From Promethearchaeia archaeon (lineage in GTDB: Archaea > Asgardarchaeota > Lokiarchaeia > Sigyniarchaeales > SOKP01), in assembly GCA_029856155.1 (NCBI GenBank), contig JAHQWL010000098.1, positions 15,921 to 79,920 of the forward strand: a stretch of DNA of 64,000 bases, read 5' to 3'. The position numbers were made by a program, and so were the translations under genes. Positions 40,579-58,094 of this stretch are shown piece by piece; position 1 is the first letter of the stretch; each line of letters begins with the position of its first letter. The notes under the pieces were generated by a model. That model ran no database searches, had not been told where the DNA came from, and was given only the letters and a program-made list of their open reading frames with translations.

Positions 40579-42147
40579 ATGAAATTAAAAATTAAAGAAA
40601 TTAATTTTGAAACTGGCAATACAAAAGACATTGTCTTAAATATTAAGGATGCTCGAGAATTAGGACAAAAAGCGGGAGAACGCGTTATTGTAAAAAATAT
40701 TGTATCAAAATCTATTGAAGAAAAATACTGGGTAGCAATAATTCAAATAGATTTCTTAGGTACCATTGTTGAACCTGGAGAGATTGGAGTATTTCTTAAT
40801 CTTTTAAGAGAAAAGAAAGATTTAAAAAATGAAATGATTGTATCTGTAAAACCAGCAGATCCACCAAACTCATTTAGATTCATACAAAAAAAAATAAAAG
40901 GACAAAAACTTTCCAGCGAAGAAATTAATAATATTATCTCTGATGCGGTTTCTGGATCTCTCTCACGGATAGATTTAGCAGCATTCATAACAGGAGTAGC
41001 TATTAATAGCATGGATAACGAAGAAATGACTGCTTTAACTCTAGCGGAAACTAGGAGTGGAGAGATCTTTTATTTCGGAATGGATGTCTACGATAAACAT
41101 AGCACAAAAACCTATATTTCATAGGTTTTGTTAAAAGGCGGCGTCCCAGGGAATAAAGTATCTCTAATTATCGTTCCGATTGTTGCTGCTGCTGGATTAA
41201 CTATTCCAAAATCTTCAACAAGAGCCATAACATCCCCATCAGGTACAGCAGATTCAATGGAAGTCTTAGCTCCCATTGCTTTCAATCCAGAAGAGTTAAA
41301 AAGTATTGTATCTGAAGAAAATGCATGTATAATTTGGGGTGGAGCTCTTGAAACAGCTCCAGCAGATAACATTTTAATAGAAATTGAACGTCCTTTACAT
41401 ATGGATCCCATAGGTCTTATGATACCTTCTATTCTAACAAAAAAGCTTTCATTAGGAGTTAAAAAGCTTGTTCTTGATATACCGGTGGGCGAAGGTACAA
41501 AATTTCCTACAATCGATAAAGGAAAACAGTTTGCTTATTTATTTAAAGAAATTGCTGCAAATGTTGGAATTGAAGCAGAATGCGCCCTCACATTAGCTCA
41601 TCAACCTATAGGTCACGCTGTAGGTCCTGCTTTAGAAGCTAAAGAAGCGCTTACATTATTACGTGAATATTCTGCGGGACCTAACTCTTTAATAGAGAAG
41701 TCTACTGATTTAGCGGGGATTCTACTTGAAATGGGCGGAAATGCTCTAAAAGGTATGGGACAAAGTTTAGCGAAAGAAATTTTACGTTCTGGTAAAGCTT
41801 ATGAAAAAATGAAAAAAATTATCGAAGCACAGGGGGGAAATCCAGAAATAAAACCCGAAGATATTGAGTTAGGACCACATATTAAAGAATTTTTTGCTTC
41901 TAAAGATGGATATATAGTTGATGTAAATAATTCAATAATAAATCGAATAGCAAAAACTGCAGGATGCCCTAACTCGAAGACTTCAGGTGTAGAAATTATA
42001 AAAAAACAAGGTGCAAAAATAAAAGAGGGAGAATTAGTATTTAGAGTTTATTCACATAATCAATCTAAATTAAGAAAGGCGGAAAAAATTTATAATACAA
42101 CAGGAGGTCCAATTCGTCTTGGAGGAATGTTGATTGAGAGAGTATAA
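40579..42147 (+). CDS. deoA: AMP phosphorylase (thymidine phosphorylase family), split by a predicted 30-nt intron; ~512 aa spliced
   Basis: ORFs 40579-41124 and 41128-42147 share a frame; after splicing DKHSTGGVPGNK; KSSTRAITSPSGTAD, SILTKK, DIPVGEG, GPALEA. Confidence 0.9.
41106..41135 (+). other. candidate BHB/BHL-type intron in an mRNA
   Basis: TAGC/GTTA central helix, bulges ACA and AAA, stem AAAACCTAT/ATAGGTTTT with in-frame TAG; removal gives AGC-ACA-GGC. Confidence 0.8.
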
Positions 42148-42176: not shown

Positions 42177-43667
42177 ATGCCTTTAACTCCAAAAGCAATT
42201 TATGATGATTTAAAAAATGGTGATTTAGATAAATCCTTTGCGATAGAATTATTAATAACATTAATTGATAATTCAGAGAGCATTGAAACGCGAATAGAAA
42301 GTATCAGAGTTTTAAACAAGATACCATTAAATGATAATCAAACTTTTAAATTTCTAGAAAATTTAATGATTTCAGATTTAAATGAAAATGTTAGAAAAAT
42401 TACATGTGAAGTTCTTAAAAATCATTATTTAGAAAAAGTCCTAGTTCCAATATCATGGATGCTTGAACATGAAAAATCAATAAACTGTTTATTAACAGGA
42501 GTATCTATTCTCGCTGAAATTAATACAAATGATTCTAAATCAATTCTTATAGATAAATTGAATAGTATATACACTAAAGAATATAAATATAACTTAAAAG
42601 ATATATTTAAGATAAAAGATATTGAGAGTTATACAACGCAAGATCTTGCTGAGATCTTATTAAATTTTTATATTACCTCCTTTTTAAAAGCGAAATATGG
42701 TTTTATACATTATGAAATTGATGATATGGGGTTTATTTCAAAATTAGATTTATCTAATGTAGATTCCCAAGGTATATCTTTGCCGAATTTTCTTGATTCA
42801 ATTTTTTCTCTTAAATCACTGAAGTATTTTGACTTACGATTTAATCATTTAATTCAATTACCAGAAATTTCAAAAGGATCAGCTTCTGTAATTTCTATAG
42901 ATTTAGGTTATAATCATTTAATTAGTCTACCTGATTCTATTGAAAAGTTAAAGTCATTAAAAGTCTTAAATTTAAAATCTAATAGGTTAAGATCTCTTCC
43001 TGACACGTTAGGTAATCTATCATATCTTCAAATCCTAAATTTAAGAAACAATATGCTGAAAAAGATCCCTAGATCAATCTCATCTCTTAAATCATTAAAG
43101 AATTTAGATTTACATGGAAATAAATTAAGTTCCTTTGAAATAAAATTAAATTATTCTATAGAGGAACTTGAATTTGGATGGAATAATTTTTTAAAATTTC
43201 CTACTAATATTAAATATCTTACTTCTTTAAGAAAATTAGGTATGAGTGGAAACAAAATAAAGAAAATACCAAGATGGATTTCTTTATTACATTCATTAGA
43301 AATATTAGATTTATATGATAATGATATATCAAGCTTACCCGATTCGATGGGTGACTTAAAAACATTAAAAATATTAACTCTACGAAATAATCATCTTTCT
43401 ACTCTACCTAAATCGTTTATTTATTTAAAAAAACTGAAGACACTTAATTTAAGCTGGAATAATTTCAATTTTTTACCTGATTGGATTGGAGAACTTTCTT
43501 CATTAGAAGAATTAAATTTATGGGGAAATAAACTTGAAACACTCCCTAAATCAATCAGTTCATTATCAAATCTAAAAATATTAGATTTAACTTTCAATAG
43601 ATTTGAACAAAGTCCAAGATTTTTGAAAGAATTAGAAAGAAAAAATAGACTTATTGTAAAAATTTAA
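42177..43667 (+). CDS. HEAT-like N-terminus plus leucine-rich repeat protein
   Basis: Multiple L-x-L-x2-N-x-L-x2-LP repeats. Confidence 0.9.
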   Translation: MPLTPKAIYDDLKNGDLDKSFAIELLITLIDNSESIETRIESIRVLNKIPLNDNQTFKFLENLMISDLNENVRKITCEVLKNHYLEKVLVPISWMLEHEKSINCLLTGVSILAEINTNDSKSILIDKLNSIYTKEYKYNLKDIFKIKDIESYTTQDLAEILLNFYITSFLKAKYGFIHYEIDDMGFISKLDLSNVDSQGISLPNFLDSIFSLKSLKYFDLRFNHLIQLPEISKGSASVISIDLGYNHLISLPDSIEKLKSLKVLNLKSNRLRSLPDTLGNLSYLQILNLRNNMLKKIPRSISSLKSLKNLDLHGNKLSSFEIKLNYSIEELEFGWNNFLKFPTNIKYLTSLRKLGMSGNKIKKIPRWISLLHSLEILDLYDNDISSLPDSMGDLKTLKILTLRNNHLSTLPKSFIYLKKLKTLNLSWNNFNFLPDWIGELSSLEELNLWGNKLETLPKSISSLSNLKILDLTFNRFEQSPRFLKELERKNRLIVKI

Positions 43668-56744: not shown

Positions 56745-58094
56745 TTATTCAATTAATTGTGTTTTTCCAGTTCCCCAAACACCAAGAGCTACTCCTAATT
56801 CTTTATGCTGTTTAGCAACGTCTCTTACATTCTTTCCTTCCATTACAGCATCTATCGCTTGTCTGAATGCTTTTGCTCCAGCAATTGGTCCATCAGGATG
56901 ACTATGGATACCACCACCACTACCAATGAGGATGTCGTTACCTGCCTCTTTCATACATTTCTCTACCATTCCTTGTGTAATTCCACCACTTGGCATCGGC
57001 AACGTTGGTTTAATGTGTTGTAATGGATATCTTAATGCTTTAAGATTCTGTTCATATCTCTCCTCTAAAATTTCAGCTTTACCATAGGGTGCGGGAATTA
57101 CTACGGTGTCTGCCCCACAAATTCTTGGTAATTTTGCAAAAGTTAACATACTTGTCATTCCCGTCCACTCTCCTCCAAAATAGGTACCACCAAAATCCAT
57201 ATGTCCTAGGATTGGCACTTTTATTGAAGGATCTTCAGCTATTTGTCTTAAAGCTTCATAACCAGTAGATAAATAATTAATCATTAAGGCATTAGCACCT
57301 AATTCGATCATTTTATCTGCGTATTCAAACATTTCAGGGAATTTAGTTGTAATATTAATTGTATATAATGTTTTTTCTCCTTTTTCAGAATCTGCTCTAT
57401 CTACTGCTTCCATTACTTTAACAATTCTATCTTCAAGAGTATTAAATGAGGGGTTCGAAATTAATTCATCATCTTTTACTACATCACATCCTCCAACTGC
57501 CGCTTTATATACTAAATCAGCTGCAACTTCACATGTGTGTCCTGTACAAGGCTTCACCATATTATTTAATAAAGGTCGTTTAGGGATATTCATTAATTTT
57601 CGAATACCATCAATACCAAACTTAGGACCTTTGAAATCTTCTAACCAAGCTTTAGGAAAAGCTAGATCTACTAACTTTAGACCGTGGGTTATGCTGATAT
57701 TTCCGATCACAGTTGTAAATAACATGGGAATGCCCATCCCTTTGATATTTACAATTGGAAACCCGATTTGAACGAAATATATTCTTTCTTTAGTATCCTT
57801 GGGTATGTAATATTCATACATAGGGAGTTCATAAACACCTAATACTCTTGCCACATGATATTTTCTAACTTCCTCTGTTTCAGCAGGAACTCTAACCCAT
57901 GTTCCAGTTGACTGCTCAATTGCAGCAAATCTTGATAAATAGTTGACATTTTGACCCTTAGGTCGTTTAATGATATAACTCGCAATAATGTATTTTTCTA
58001 AATCAATACCATCTAATCCTATAGCTTCGGGAACATCATAATACTGTTCACAGCTAGGAAAATTTTCTTCCATCTTTTTCTCACTAGAATTCAT
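56745..58094 (-). CDS. RuBisCO-like protein (probably form IV)
   Basis: EQSTGTW, GPKFG, KP, VKDDE, SGG, GGGIHSHP; GHMDF replaces the H-R-A motif of true RuBisCO. Confidence 0.85.
   Translation of the reverse strand: MNSSEKKMEENFPSCEQYYDVPEAIGLDGIDLEKYIIASYIIKRPKGQNVNYLSRFAAIEQSTGTWVRVPAETEEVRKYHVARVLGVYELPMYEYYIPKDTKERIYFVQIGFPIVNIKGMGIPMLFTTVIGNISITHGLKLVDLAFPKAWLEDFKGPKFGIDGIRKLMNIPKRPLLNNMVKPCTGHTCEVAADLVYKAAVGGCDVVKDDELISNPSFNTLEDRIVKVMEAVDRADSEKGEKTLYTINITTKFPEMFEYADKMIELGANALMINYLSTGYEALRQIAEDPSIKVPILGHMDFGGTYFGGEWTGMTSMLTFAKLPRICGADTVVIPAPYGKAEILEERYEQNLKALRYPLQHIKPTLPMPSGGITQGMVEKCMKEAGNDILIGSGGGIHSHPDGPIAGAKAFRQAIDAVMEGKNVRDVAKQHKELGVALGVWGTGKTQLIE

What the first reader, a model, noticed from the sequence alone, without database searches (positions are those of the whole stretch)
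41082..41146. Candidate tRNA-endonuclease-type (BHB/BHL) intron inside the AMP phosphorylase mRNA
Seen: the gene reads D-K-H-S-T-[K-T-Y-I-S-*-V-L-L-K]-G-G-V-P-G-N-K, a 30-nt insert with an in-frame TAG. The region folds as a 4-bp helix TAGC(41100-03)/GTTA(41130-33), a 3-nt bulge ACA, a perfect 9-bp stem AAAACCTAT/ATAGGTTTT with 5-nt loop, and a 3' AAA. A further exon-exon pairing GGATGTC(41082-88)/GGCGTCC(41140-46) closes an internal loop, so the motif is relaxed (BHL-like) rather than strict BHB. Known: archaeal EndA cuts after the 2nd nt of each bulge, and DKHS(T/I)GG is the conserved phosphate-binding motif of the thymidine/AMP phosphorylase family. Applying that rule removes 41106-41135 and yields AGC-ACA-GGC (S-T-G), restoring the motif exactly. 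The archaeal mRNA intron I know as established is crenarchaeal cbf5. Inference: this is a spliced protein-coding gene in an Asgard archaeon, which pipelines would call a pseudogene or two genes.
Basis: partly seen in the sequence, partly recalled or inferred. Interest (0 to 1): 0.95.

Follow-up and report, generated by a model that had tools for sequence, protein, structure and literature searches.

The report
tRNA-type mini-intron in Asgard AMP phosphorylase
The only AMP phosphorylase gene of this Loki-type (Asgard) archaeon is interrupted, inside its phosphate-binding motif, by a 30-base hairpin shaped like a tRNA intron that is conserved with compensating mutations in 36 related species, so the enzyme can almost certainly be made only after the mRNA is cut and re-joined, a process published for only one other archaeal protein gene (cbf5).

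Summary
The 30 nt at 41106-41135 carry an in-frame TAG and split a single-copy AMP phosphorylase gene exactly between DKHST and GGVPGNK.

- **Recurrence:** the insert sits at the same codon in 36 of 154 genomes of the order. All 36 are in one Promethearchaeia (Lokiarchaeia) family.
- **Length:** inserts are 29, 30 or 31 nt, and only the hairpin loop differs. Five of them shift the frame.
- **Structure:** in 30 aligned inserts the exon-intron 4-bp helix pairs in every sequence (U-A 20, C-G 10). Eight of nine hairpin pairs show double-sided changes.
- **Selection:** both exons stay open, with dN/dS 0.07-0.09, like intron-free orthologues.
- **Junction:** cutting after bulge nucleotide 2 always restores Thr-Gly-Gly.
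- **Machinery:** the genome encodes a crenarchaeal-type (alpha-beta)2 EndA with the broad-specificity loop residues, plus RtcB.
- **Rivals:** split-gene, ribosome-hop and pseudogene readings fail in part of the species.
- **Motif:** it is relaxed (HBh'/BHL), because the 3' site has no adjacent outer helix.

Splicing was not observed; no RNA data for this locus were reachable. I verified the same architecture in Rpo10 and a Roadblock gene of this genome. This scan has flagged such mini-introns before on other Asgard DNA. In the papers I could search, only cbf5 is reported.

The parts
40579..41105 (+). Exon 1 of AMP phosphorylase (N-terminal domain up to ...DKHS + the first two bases of the Thr codon)
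   Evidence: ORF. TIGR03327 profile positions 1-165. Aligns to T. kodakarensis AMP phosphorylase 4GA5 residues 49-155. dN/dS is 0.093 among intron-bearing species.
41106..41135 (+). 30-nt BHB-type (relaxed HBh'/BHL) mini-intron. Because of the flanking A residues, 41107-41136 is an equivalent placement.
   Evidence: Read directly. Present at the same site in 36 genomes, at 29, 30 or 31 nt. Carries 1-4 in-frame stops in 30 of 30 aligned inserts.
41136..42147 (+). Exon 2 (third base of the Thr codon, then GGVPGNK... to the stop TAA at 42145-42147)
   Evidence: TIGR03327 profile positions 167-500. Aligns to 4GA5 residues 167-494. It is 336 codons in every complete intron-bearing orthologue. dN/dS is 0.074.
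41100..41103 (+). Central 4-bp helix H, 5' strand (exon: last base of the His codon + the Ser codon, TAGC)
   Evidence: Pairs with 41130-41133. Paired in 30 of 30 sequences. Column pair 25-58 is U-A in 20 and C-G in 10.
41130..41133 (+). Central helix H, 3' strand (intron 3' end, GTTA)
   Evidence: The rival pairing (41096-99 with 41129-32) is broken in 7-11 of 30 sequences.
41104..41106 (+). 5' bulge ACA. Predicted cut between 41105 and 41106.
   Evidence: A 3-nt bulge flanked by H and h' in all 30 aligned sequences. The cut position follows from the BHB rule and was not observed.
41107..41129 (+). Intron hairpin h': 9-bp stem (41107-15 with 41121-29) and 5-nt loop (41116-20)
   Evidence: 97% of cells are paired and 8 of 9 pairs show changes on both sides. 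Loop length varies between 4, 5 and 6 nt among species.
41134..41136 (+). 3' 'bulge' AAA, in fact the start of an unpaired stretch. Predicted cut between 41135 and 41136.
   Evidence: It lies immediately 3' of H, as in a BHB. No adjacent outer helix closes it. Its third base varies (A, T, G or C) and always completes an ACN Thr codon.
41122..41124 (+). In-frame TAG stop inside the intron
   Evidence: '1 TAG' inside the family match.
41128..41130 (+). TTG inside the intron, which gene callers use as the start of a 339-aa 'gene'
   Evidence: Public annotations of 338-339 aa. An in-frame start after the last stop is missing in 7 of 30 inserts.
41082..41088 (+). Possible distal exon-exon helix, 5' strand (pairs with 41140-41146). 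Not supported as functional.
   Evidence: Pairing is possible. Across 30 sequences the columns of this 7-bp core (7-13/65-71) are paired in 21 to 30 sequences each. The helix extended to columns 5-13/65-73 is 73% paired. There are no double-sided changes within the 7-bp core; one sequence has one at 8-70. Both strands are constrained by coding.
41140..41146 (+). Possible distal exon-exon helix, 3' strand
   Evidence: As above.

Best explanation
The 30 nt at 41106-41135 are an archaeal bulge-helix-bulge-type intron in a protein-coding mRNA.

1. The pre-mRNA folds so that the exon bases TAGC (His wobble base + Ser codon) pair with the intron's 3' end, GTTA. This is the 4-bp central helix.
2. The helix is followed on the 5' strand by a 3-nt bulge and the 9-bp intron hairpin. 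On the 3' strand it is followed by three unpaired bases.
3. The genome's (alpha-beta)2 splicing endonuclease EndA cuts two nucleotides 3' of the central helix on each strand, at 41105|41106 and 41135|41136.
4. RtcB joins the exons. The intron is released and possibly circularised.
5. The spliced message reads ...DKHS-T-GGVPGNK... and encodes a 512-aa AMP phosphorylase.

Shown here: the anatomy, its conservation and covariation, selection on both exons, the exact restoration of the motif, and the presence of the enzymes.

Inferred: the cleavage and ligation themselves, the enzymes responsible, and the exact cut positions. I regard the intron as most likely a tolerated, slowly lost element rather than a regulator.
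For: 1. **Colinearity and copy number.** The halves match TIGR03327 at positions 1-165 and 167-500. It is the only AMP phosphorylase locus in the genome. RuBisCO and an e2b2-like isomerase gene are present.
2. **Recurrence.** The same site is interrupted in 36 of 154 genomes of the order. That is G000 plus 35 of 134 other genomes of its family, in 10 of the family's 13 genera, and 0 of 19 in sister families. The reversed-pattern control gives 0.
3. **Length.** Inserts are 29 nt (2 genomes), 30 nt (31) or 31 nt (3), and the difference lies in the loop. So 5 species would be frameshifted without removal.
4. **Covariation in 30 sequences.** Helix H is 100% paired, with U-A in 20 and C-G in 10 at the pair formed by the exon's synonymous His wobble base and an intron base. 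The hairpin is 97% paired, with 8 of 9 pairs changed on both sides. Slid controls pair in 33-50% of cells, and no shuffle of 500 reaches the observed values. The alternative helix is broken in 7-11 sequences.
5. **Strand.** 44 G.U cells make the core fold better on the sense strand (382 of 390 cells) than on the antisense strand (339 of 390). That points to RNA.
6. **Intact genes.** All 30 genes keep both exons open, and exon 2 is 336 codons wherever the contig is complete. dN/dS is 0.093 and 0.074, against 0.072 and 0.058 in intron-free congeners, with dS above 1.
7. **Junction.** The canonical cuts give ACN-GGN in every insert, whatever the third bulge base.
8. **Machinery.**
   - One EndA paralogue aligns with the A. 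pernix catalytic subunit. It keeps Tyr/His/Lys and the loop residues K44/R46, which confer cleavage of relaxed bulge-helix-loop substrates (PMC3241643).
   - A second paralogue lacks the catalytic His, as a beta subunit would.
   - There is one RtcB.
   - Asgard EndA is reported as the broad-specificity (alpha-beta)2 type (PMC5829648).
9. **Same architecture elsewhere in this genome.**
   - Rpo10 is single-copy. Its insert is 30 nt here and 31 nt in 10 congeners, and a full exon-exon helix is present.
   - A Roadblock/LC7 gene is split colinearly at profile positions 35|42.
10. **Precise losses.** Intron-free alleles are exact deletions nested among intron-bearing ones on the gene tree.
Against: - The motif is relaxed. 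No helix adjoins the 3' cut site, and the distal helix proposed to close the loop shows almost no covariation. Cleavage at the 3' site therefore rests on analogy with HBh'/BHL substrates.
- The single-sequence minimum-energy fold uses another 4-bp helix and is not significantly stable (z = -1.62).
- In this genome and its genus, an in-frame TTG follows the stop (23 of 30 inserts). A two-polypeptide reading is therefore not excluded by this genome alone.
- Independent evolutionary events are few. The U-A/C-G switch needs about 4 changes on the quick tree and gives only 2 pairs on well-supported branches, too few for a sign test. The shuffle statistics overstate significance for related sequences.
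- My genome-wide ORF-restoration scan gave no excess over controls.
Confidence: 0.85

Rival explanations
1. Split gene. The insert simply separates two genes. A 181-aa N-terminal protein ends at the TAG, and a 339-aa C-terminal protein starts at the TTG (41128). The two associate to form the enzyme.
For: An in-frame TTG follows the last stop in 23 of 30 inserts, including this one. Gene callers annotate a 339-aa product.
Against: - 7 of 30 inserts, all from other genera, have no ATG, GTG or TTG between the last stop and GGN, yet their exons are equally conserved.
- The split would cut the contiguous DKHSTGG phosphate loop.
- It does not explain the perfectly conserved exon-intron 4-bp helix, the bulge geometry or the near-constant 29-31 nt length.
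- The TTG is a by-product of the stem and helix sequence (TTTTG).
Confidence: 0.04
2. Programmed translational bypassing. The ribosome hops over the 30 nt, as in phage T4 gene 60 or the 'byp' elements of yeast mitochondria.
For: The gap is short, carries stop codons and has a stable hairpin at its start. Hopping would tolerate 29 or 31 nt.
Against: - The take-off Thr codon never matches the codon before GGN (0 of 30).
- An AAA...AAA match exists in only 15 of 30 inserts and would add a Lys to the motif.
- Hopping does not need the exon-intron helix with its covariation.
- I know of no report of bypassing in Archaea (my own knowledge).
Confidence: 0.03
3. Dead or dying gene. A palindromic DNA insertion (MITE-like or replication slippage) inactivated the gene, and the hairpin is a DNA feature.
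For: The insert is a near-perfect palindrome with stops. It is absent from most congeners.
Against: - Both exons are intact in 30 of 30 genes. dN/dS is 0.07-0.09 at saturated dS, the same as in intron-free genes.
- It is the only copy in the genome.
- G.U pairs make the structure specific to the sense strand.
- The asymmetric bulge and exon pairing are conserved.
- The same kind of insert sits in the single-copy essential Rpo10 gene.
Confidence: 0.02
4. The RNA is processed at this hairpin by another nuclease or ligase pathway, or it is cleaved without re-ligation as a regulatory mRNA cut that lowers expression.
For: The 3' site is not a canonical bulge. In Haloferax, EndA cleaves a BHB in a 5' UTR with regulatory consequences (PMC7714728).
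Against: Selection on both exons as one colinear enzyme, together with the frame-shifting 29- and 31-nt versions, requires exact rejoining. The geometry (4-bp helix, cuts 2 nt 3' of it on each strand) is the EndA signature and gives exactly the right junction.
Confidence: 0.05

Closest known systems
BHB intron in the cbf5 (pseudouridine synthase) pre-mRNA of Crenarchaeota (Watanabe 2002; Yokobori 2009, PMC2738675)
   Same: - A short intron inside a protein-coding region, often with a relaxed cleavage motif.
- Patchy gain and loss among relatives.
- The hosts have the hetero-oligomeric EndA that recognises relaxed motifs outside a tRNA context.
   Different: - Another gene (AMP phosphorylase), and another phylum (Promethearchaeota/Asgard instead of Crenarchaeota).
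- The intron is a uniform 29-31-nt hairpin placed inside an active-site motif.
- Splicing has not yet been shown experimentally for this locus.
Non-canonical archaeal tRNA introns with relaxed HBh'/BHL motifs (Marck & Grosjean 2003; PMC3241643; PMC5829648)
   Same: - A 4-bp central helix, a 3-nt bulge and an inner helix, with the second cut site in a loop.
- Cuts lie two nucleotides 3' of the central helix.
- The substrates depend on EndA with the Crenarchaea-specific (L1) loop, which this genome's alpha subunit carries.
- This genome's own tRNA introns are of similar size, 9-45 nt.
   Different: - The host RNA is an mRNA, so no tRNA body helps recognition.
[quoted passage not shown] The synonymous His wobble base covaries with the intron.
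BHB element in the 5' UTR of HVO_1309 mRNA, Haloferax volcanii (PMC7714728)
   Same: EndA acts on an mRNA.
   Different: That element lies in the untranslated leader, not in the reading frame. The Haloferax enzyme is the narrow-specificity alpha'2 type.
Unconventional HAC1/XBP1 mRNA splicing in eukaryotes (IRE1 cut, RtcB/Trl1 ligation; my own knowledge, RtcB role also in PMC8718801)
   Same: A small intron is removed from a coding mRNA by a protein endonuclease at stem-loops, then joined by a tRNA-type ligase. Removal changes the protein made.
   Different: The endonuclease (IRE1) and the motif are different, and that system is stress-regulated. Nothing here indicates regulation.

Membership tests
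Archaeal BHB (EndA-dependent) intron | 4-bp central helix between the two cleavage sites | tested here: met
   41100-03 pairs with 41130-33. It is paired in 30 of 30 orthologous inserts, with U-A to C-G covariation (20 against 10). The rival helix is broken in 7-11 sequences.
Archaeal BHB (EndA-dependent) intron | 3-nt bulge at the 5' splice site, flanked by the central helix and an inner helix h' | tested here: met
   The bulge at 41104-06 lies between H and the 9-bp stem in all 30 sequences. The stem is 97% paired, and 8 of 9 pairs covary.
Archaeal BHB (EndA-dependent) intron | 3-nt bulge at the 3' splice site closed by an outer exon-exon helix h (strict hBHBh') | tested here: not met
   No pairing is adjacent to 41134-36. 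The only candidate is a distal helix 41082-88/41140-46, reached across an 11 x 6-nt internal loop and lacking covariation. The motif is therefore the relaxed HBh'/BHL form, not the strict one.
Archaeal BHB (EndA-dependent) intron | Cuts after bulge nucleotide 2 on both strands give a functional joined RNA | tested here: met
   The junction is ACN-GGN (Thr-Gly) in all 36 inserts, restoring DKHSTGGVPGNK. The joined frame of 512 codons equals the intron-free orthologues.
Archaeal BHB (EndA-dependent) intron | Host encodes a splicing endonuclease able to cut relaxed motifs, and an RNA ligase | tested here: met
   The alpha subunit has the catalytic Y/H/K and the equivalents of CSL K44/R46 (PMC3241643). 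The beta-like paralogue lacks the catalytic His. RtcB is present.
Archaeal BHB (EndA-dependent) intron | Intron is actually excised from the RNA and the exons are ligated | not testable with these tools
Indirect searches found no spliced product.
AMP phosphorylase (TIGR03327 equivalog; thymidine phosphorylase superfamily) | Full-length match above the curated cut-off, with a contiguous DKHSTGG phosphate-binding motif | tested here: met
   Read through, the locus scores 555.2 bits against a cut-off of 535, over profile positions 1-500. The exons are colinear with T. kodakarensis 4GA5. The motif is contiguous only after removal of the 30 nt.

The most novel reading that the evidence does not exclude
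This locus is one instance of a lineage-wide system. In a family of Lokiarchaeia-type Asgard archaea, many protein-coding genes carry conserved 29-31-nt hairpin mini-introns that the tRNA-splicing enzymes (EndA + RtcB) must remove from mRNA. They include single-copy essential genes such as Rpo10 and probably uL11. If so, routine enzyme-catalysed mRNA splicing, with intron gain and precise loss, exists in the closest prokaryotic relatives of eukaryotes and must be reconciled with coupled transcription and translation.
Probability: 0.6. Interest if true: 0.9.

Novelty: new member of a known kind. Interest (0 to 1): 0.78.

Why it matters
- **Rarity.** In the papers I could search, splicing of an archaeal coding sequence by the tRNA endonuclease is documented only for cbf5 in Crenarchaeota (2002, 2009). 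One further case lies in a 5' UTR, in Haloferax.
- **What this locus adds.** A metabolic enzyme of an Asgard archaeon carries such an intron in its active-site motif. The intron has been conserved across at least ten genera, and its exon codons co-evolve with intron bases. That makes it a clean, testable substrate for Asgard EndA.
- **Annotation.** The intron-bearing copies I looked at in public databases are filed as truncated 'hypothetical proteins'. Metabolic reconstructions of these Asgard MAGs may therefore miss or mis-score the gene.
- **Wider significance.** Rpo10 and other genes of the same genome carry similar inserts. Together they suggest that mRNA splicing by protein enzymes is routine in this lineage, which bears on intron origins and on how splicing coexists with coupled transcription and translation.

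Tried and rejected
- **RNA evidence.** No RNA holder was listed for the locus.
- **Spliced junction in metagenome/metatranscriptome contigs.** An exact-match scan found 0 hits. The control scan for the unspliced form found this species on only one 149-kb contig. The blank is therefore uninformative.
- **Protein database.** No full-length (about 512 aa) protein is more than 93% identical to this genome's exon 2, so this route shows no spliced product.
- **DNA runs.**
  - One contig from another sample of the probable source study bridges the whole site with the insert.
  - A contig from one other study contains the complete insert but ends 12 nt beyond it. A contig from a third study starts 3 nt before it.
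  - Parts without cover in run X6 mean nothing.
- **Genome-wide scans.**
  - The strict BHB scan plus ORF restoration gave 24 hits against 20 on the opposite strand.
  - In the hairpin scan, about 5% of hairpins 'restore' a frame whether or not helix H pairs.
  - ORF restoration is too noisy at 30% GC, so I cannot give a count of introns per genome.
- **Single-sequence thermodynamics.** Not discriminating. RNAalifold on 7 sequences preferred another helix, which the 30-sequence count rejected.
- **Sign test on independent pairs for the U-A/C-G switch.** Only 2-4 pairs were available, so it has no power.
- **Careful maximum-likelihood tree.** It did not finish, so the quick tree was used.
- **Readings rejected:** in-frame read-through or Pyl/Sec recoding. 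Inserts carry up to four stops of all three kinds (TAA, TAG, TGA), and five inserts are 29 or 31 nt.
Full report
**Observation.** The window carries a single AMP phosphorylase gene at 40579-42147 (+). It is broken by 30 extra bases.
- The upstream ORF ends ...DKHSTKTYIS* (TAG at 41122-24). The same frame resumes ...VLLKGGVPGNK.
- The halves match the equivalog TIGR03327 at profile positions 1-165 and 167-500. Read through, the locus matches positions 1-500 at 555 bits (cut-off 535) with one TAG inside, and it is the only copy in the 4.1-Mb genome.
- The exons are colinear with the solved Thermococcus kodakarensis enzyme. Exon 2 begins at its residue 167.
- On this one sequence the fold is not remarkable: z = -1.62, and the minimum-energy fold picks another 4-bp helix.

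**Organism and reality of the insert.** The relatives are MAGs labelled Promethearchaeota/Promethearchaeia, that is Lokiarchaeia-type Asgard archaea, and the DNA runs that hold the locus come from marine and salt-marsh sediments. The genome has 30% GC. DNA contigs from other samples and studies contain the insert unchanged, and no joined form was seen.

**Comparative evidence.**
- *Recurrence.* A degenerate pattern for DKHST + spacer + GGVPGNK finds an insert at exactly this codon in 36 of 154 genomes of the order. All are in the window's family (G000 plus 35 of 134 other genomes, in 10 of 13 genera), and none of 19 in sister families. A reversed-pattern control finds none.
- *Length.* Thirty-one inserts are 30 nt, two are 29 nt and three are 31 nt. 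The difference lies in the hairpin loop (4, 5 or 6 nt). The 29- and 31-nt versions shift the frame.
- *Open exons.* In all 30 inserts fetched, both exons are open. Exon 2 is 336 codons wherever the contig is complete.
- *Selection.* Pairwise dN/dS among intron-bearing genes is 0.093 (exon 1) and 0.074 (exon 2) at dS above 1. Intron-free congeners give 0.072 and 0.058.
- *Tree.* On a quick gene tree the intron occupies the basal lineages of the family and is scattered through the genus. Intron-free alleles, which are exact deletions, are nested among intron-bearing ones. Well-supported branches force at least 5 changes, and parsimony needs 11. This suggests an old intron with repeated precise losses. 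Sampling of intron-free rows was uneven, so the counts are only indicative.

**Structure.** These counts come from the 30-sequence alignment A3, in which column = window position - 41075.
- The exon-intron helix (columns 25-28 with 55-58) pairs in every sequence. The pair formed by the synonymous His wobble base and an intron base is U-A in 20 sequences and C-G in 10.
- The 9-bp hairpin is 97% paired, with double-sided changes at 8 of 9 pairs.
- Slid controls pair in only 33-50% of cells, and no shuffle of 500 reaches the observed values.
- The helix that RNAalifold preferred on 7 sequences is broken in 7-11 of the 30.
- Forty-four G.U cells make the core better paired on the sense strand (382 of 390) than on the antisense strand (339 of 390). 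The structure therefore belongs to the transcript.
- The distal exon-exon helix is possible in most sequences but shows almost no covariation, and both of its strands are constrained by coding. I do not count it as shown.
- The motif is therefore H + 5' bulge + h', with the 3' site in an open loop. This is the relaxed HBh'/BHL form.
- A caveat on independence: the U-A/C-G switch needs only about four changes on the tree.

**Junction.** In a BHB both bulges lie 3' of their strand of the central helix, and EndA cuts after the second bulge nucleotide. This is established knowledge, and it is consistent with tRNA position 37/38 and with the anticodon-intron pair. Applied here, the rule removes 41106-41135 and joins AC to N-GGN. 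All 36 inserts then read Thr-Gly-Gly, whatever the third bulge base (A, T, G or C). The joined frame has 512 codons, like the intron-free orthologues.

**Machinery.**
- The genome has two EndA-family genes and one RtcB.
- One EndA aligns end to end with the catalytic subunit of Aeropyrum pernix EndA. It keeps the Tyr/His/Lys triad and the K-P-R of the Crenarchaea-specific loop. K44 in that loop is what lets the enzyme cut bulge-helix-loop substrates (PMC3241643).
- The other paralogue has lost the catalytic His, as a beta subunit would.
- This fits the report that Asgard archaea carry the (alpha-beta)2 enzyme with the L1 loop (PMC5829648).

**Rivals.**
- *Read-through or recoding.* Every insert has 1-4 in-frame stops, and five inserts shift the frame. 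This reading is out.
- *Split gene.* It needs a start codon after the last stop. Seven of 30 inserts have none, and the TTG in the others is part of the stem/helix sequence.
- *Ribosome hop.* It needs matching take-off and landing codons. The Thr codon never matches (0 of 30), and the AAA...AAA option exists in only half and would add a residue.
- *Pseudogene.* It is contradicted by the selection data.

**Context in the genome.**
- Earlier notes of this scan listed other candidate mini-introns in this genome. I tested some of them myself.
- Rpo10, a single-copy gene, stops after CCKRMIVN*. It resumes after a 30-nt insert with a 9-bp stem (one mismatch), a 5-nt loop, a 4-position helix, two 3-nt bulges and an adjacent 7-bp exon-exon helix. 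The canonical cuts give ...RMIVSHVDLIDELL.
- The Rpo10 insert recurs in 11 species of the genus and is 31 nt, hence frame-shifting, in ten of them. Its stem shows compensatory changes.
- A Roadblock/LC7 gene found by my own scan is split by a 30-nt insert between profile positions 35 and 42.
- An AIR-synthase-family gene and the uL11 N-terminus look similar but were only partly examined.
- My attempts at a genome-wide statistic failed because ORF restoration is too noisy at 30% GC.

**Literature and novelty.**
- Six searches of the held library found BHB introns in mRNAs only for crenarchaeal cbf5 (PMC2738675) and a Haloferax 5' UTR (PMC7714728, which says cbf5 was the only other example). They found nothing on Asgard mRNAs.
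- Recent Asgard work concerns tRNA introns (PMC11291895; bioRxiv 10.64898/2026.10.13.758758).
- Subscription journals are not covered by the library.
- This scan has flagged the same kind of intron on other Asgard DNA, and some follow-up agents reported RNA contigs with exact excision. I did not check those reports and do not count them as support.
- I file this locus as a new member of a known kind, the EndA-type intron in an archaeal mRNA. The lineage-wide system is stated separately as the novel case.

**Limits.** Excision in RNA was not observed. No RNA run holding the locus was available, and indirect searches were blank or uninformative. My confidence that the 30 nt are removed from the mRNA at the predicted sites by EndA and RtcB is 0.85.

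Noticed in passing
G000:C14:57484-57555 (-), = L036:1453-1524: The single-copy Rpo10 (RpoN) gene is interrupted after CCKRMIV by a 30-nt stop-containing insert with a full hBHBh' geometry. Exon-exon helix CGCATGA/TCATGTG; 4-position central helix TTGT/GCGT (one U-U mismatch); bulges AAA and AAG; 9-bp stem with one mismatch; 5-nt loop. The canonical cuts give RMIVSHVDLIDELL. The insert recurs in 11 species of the genus and is 31 nt (frame-shifting) in ten of them.
   Followed up: yes
G000:C72:106002-106031 (+), = L035:165-194: A Roadblock/LC7-domain gene is split by a 30-nt insert (8-bp stem, 7-nt loop, helix ACGT/GCGT). Exon 1 matches Pfam profile positions 2-35 and exon 2 matches 42-90.
   Followed up: partly
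G000:C44:81452-81481 (+), = L034:500-529: A 30-nt BHB-shaped insert (9-bp stem, 5-nt loop, helix ACGT/GCGT) joins a 166-codon and a 303-codon open frame. The downstream part is an AIR-synthase-family protein (AIRS N-domain from profile position 43). The upstream part had no family hit.
   Followed up: partly
G000:C44, = L037:1357-1500: The N-terminus of ribosomal protein uL11 appears in three pieces: MSEKGKIVVKALVTGGS / ASGGPPI / GPSVGPTGINI... They are separated by two stop-containing AT-rich inserts of about 36-37 nt. The Pfam match starts only at profile position 17. I did not dissect the motifs.
   Followed up: partly
whole genome G000: ARAGORN finds only 28 tRNA genes, 14 of them with called introns of 9-529 nt, plus a tRNA-SeC. 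The set is incomplete for a 97%-complete genome, which suggests that many tRNA genes carry multiple or non-canonical introns.
   Followed up: no
window 56775-57617 (-): A RuBisCO large-subunit family gene (167 bits) lies about 15 kb downstream of the AMP phosphorylase gene. A better-scoring RuBisCO lies on contig C25, next to an e2b2-like isomerase gene, as expected for the AMP salvage pathway.
   Followed up: no
window 42177-43667 (+): A 496-aa leucine-rich-repeat protein lies directly downstream of the AMP phosphorylase gene. I judged this from the repeated LxxLxLxxN pattern and ran no family search.
   Followed up: no
window 41045-41147: Logan contigs of three DNA runs end at or near the hairpin: 41147 and 41124 in X2, 41045 and 41103 in X5, 41110 in X6. 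This looks like assembly-graph breaks at the palindrome, and could fragment such genes in MAGs.
   Followed up: no
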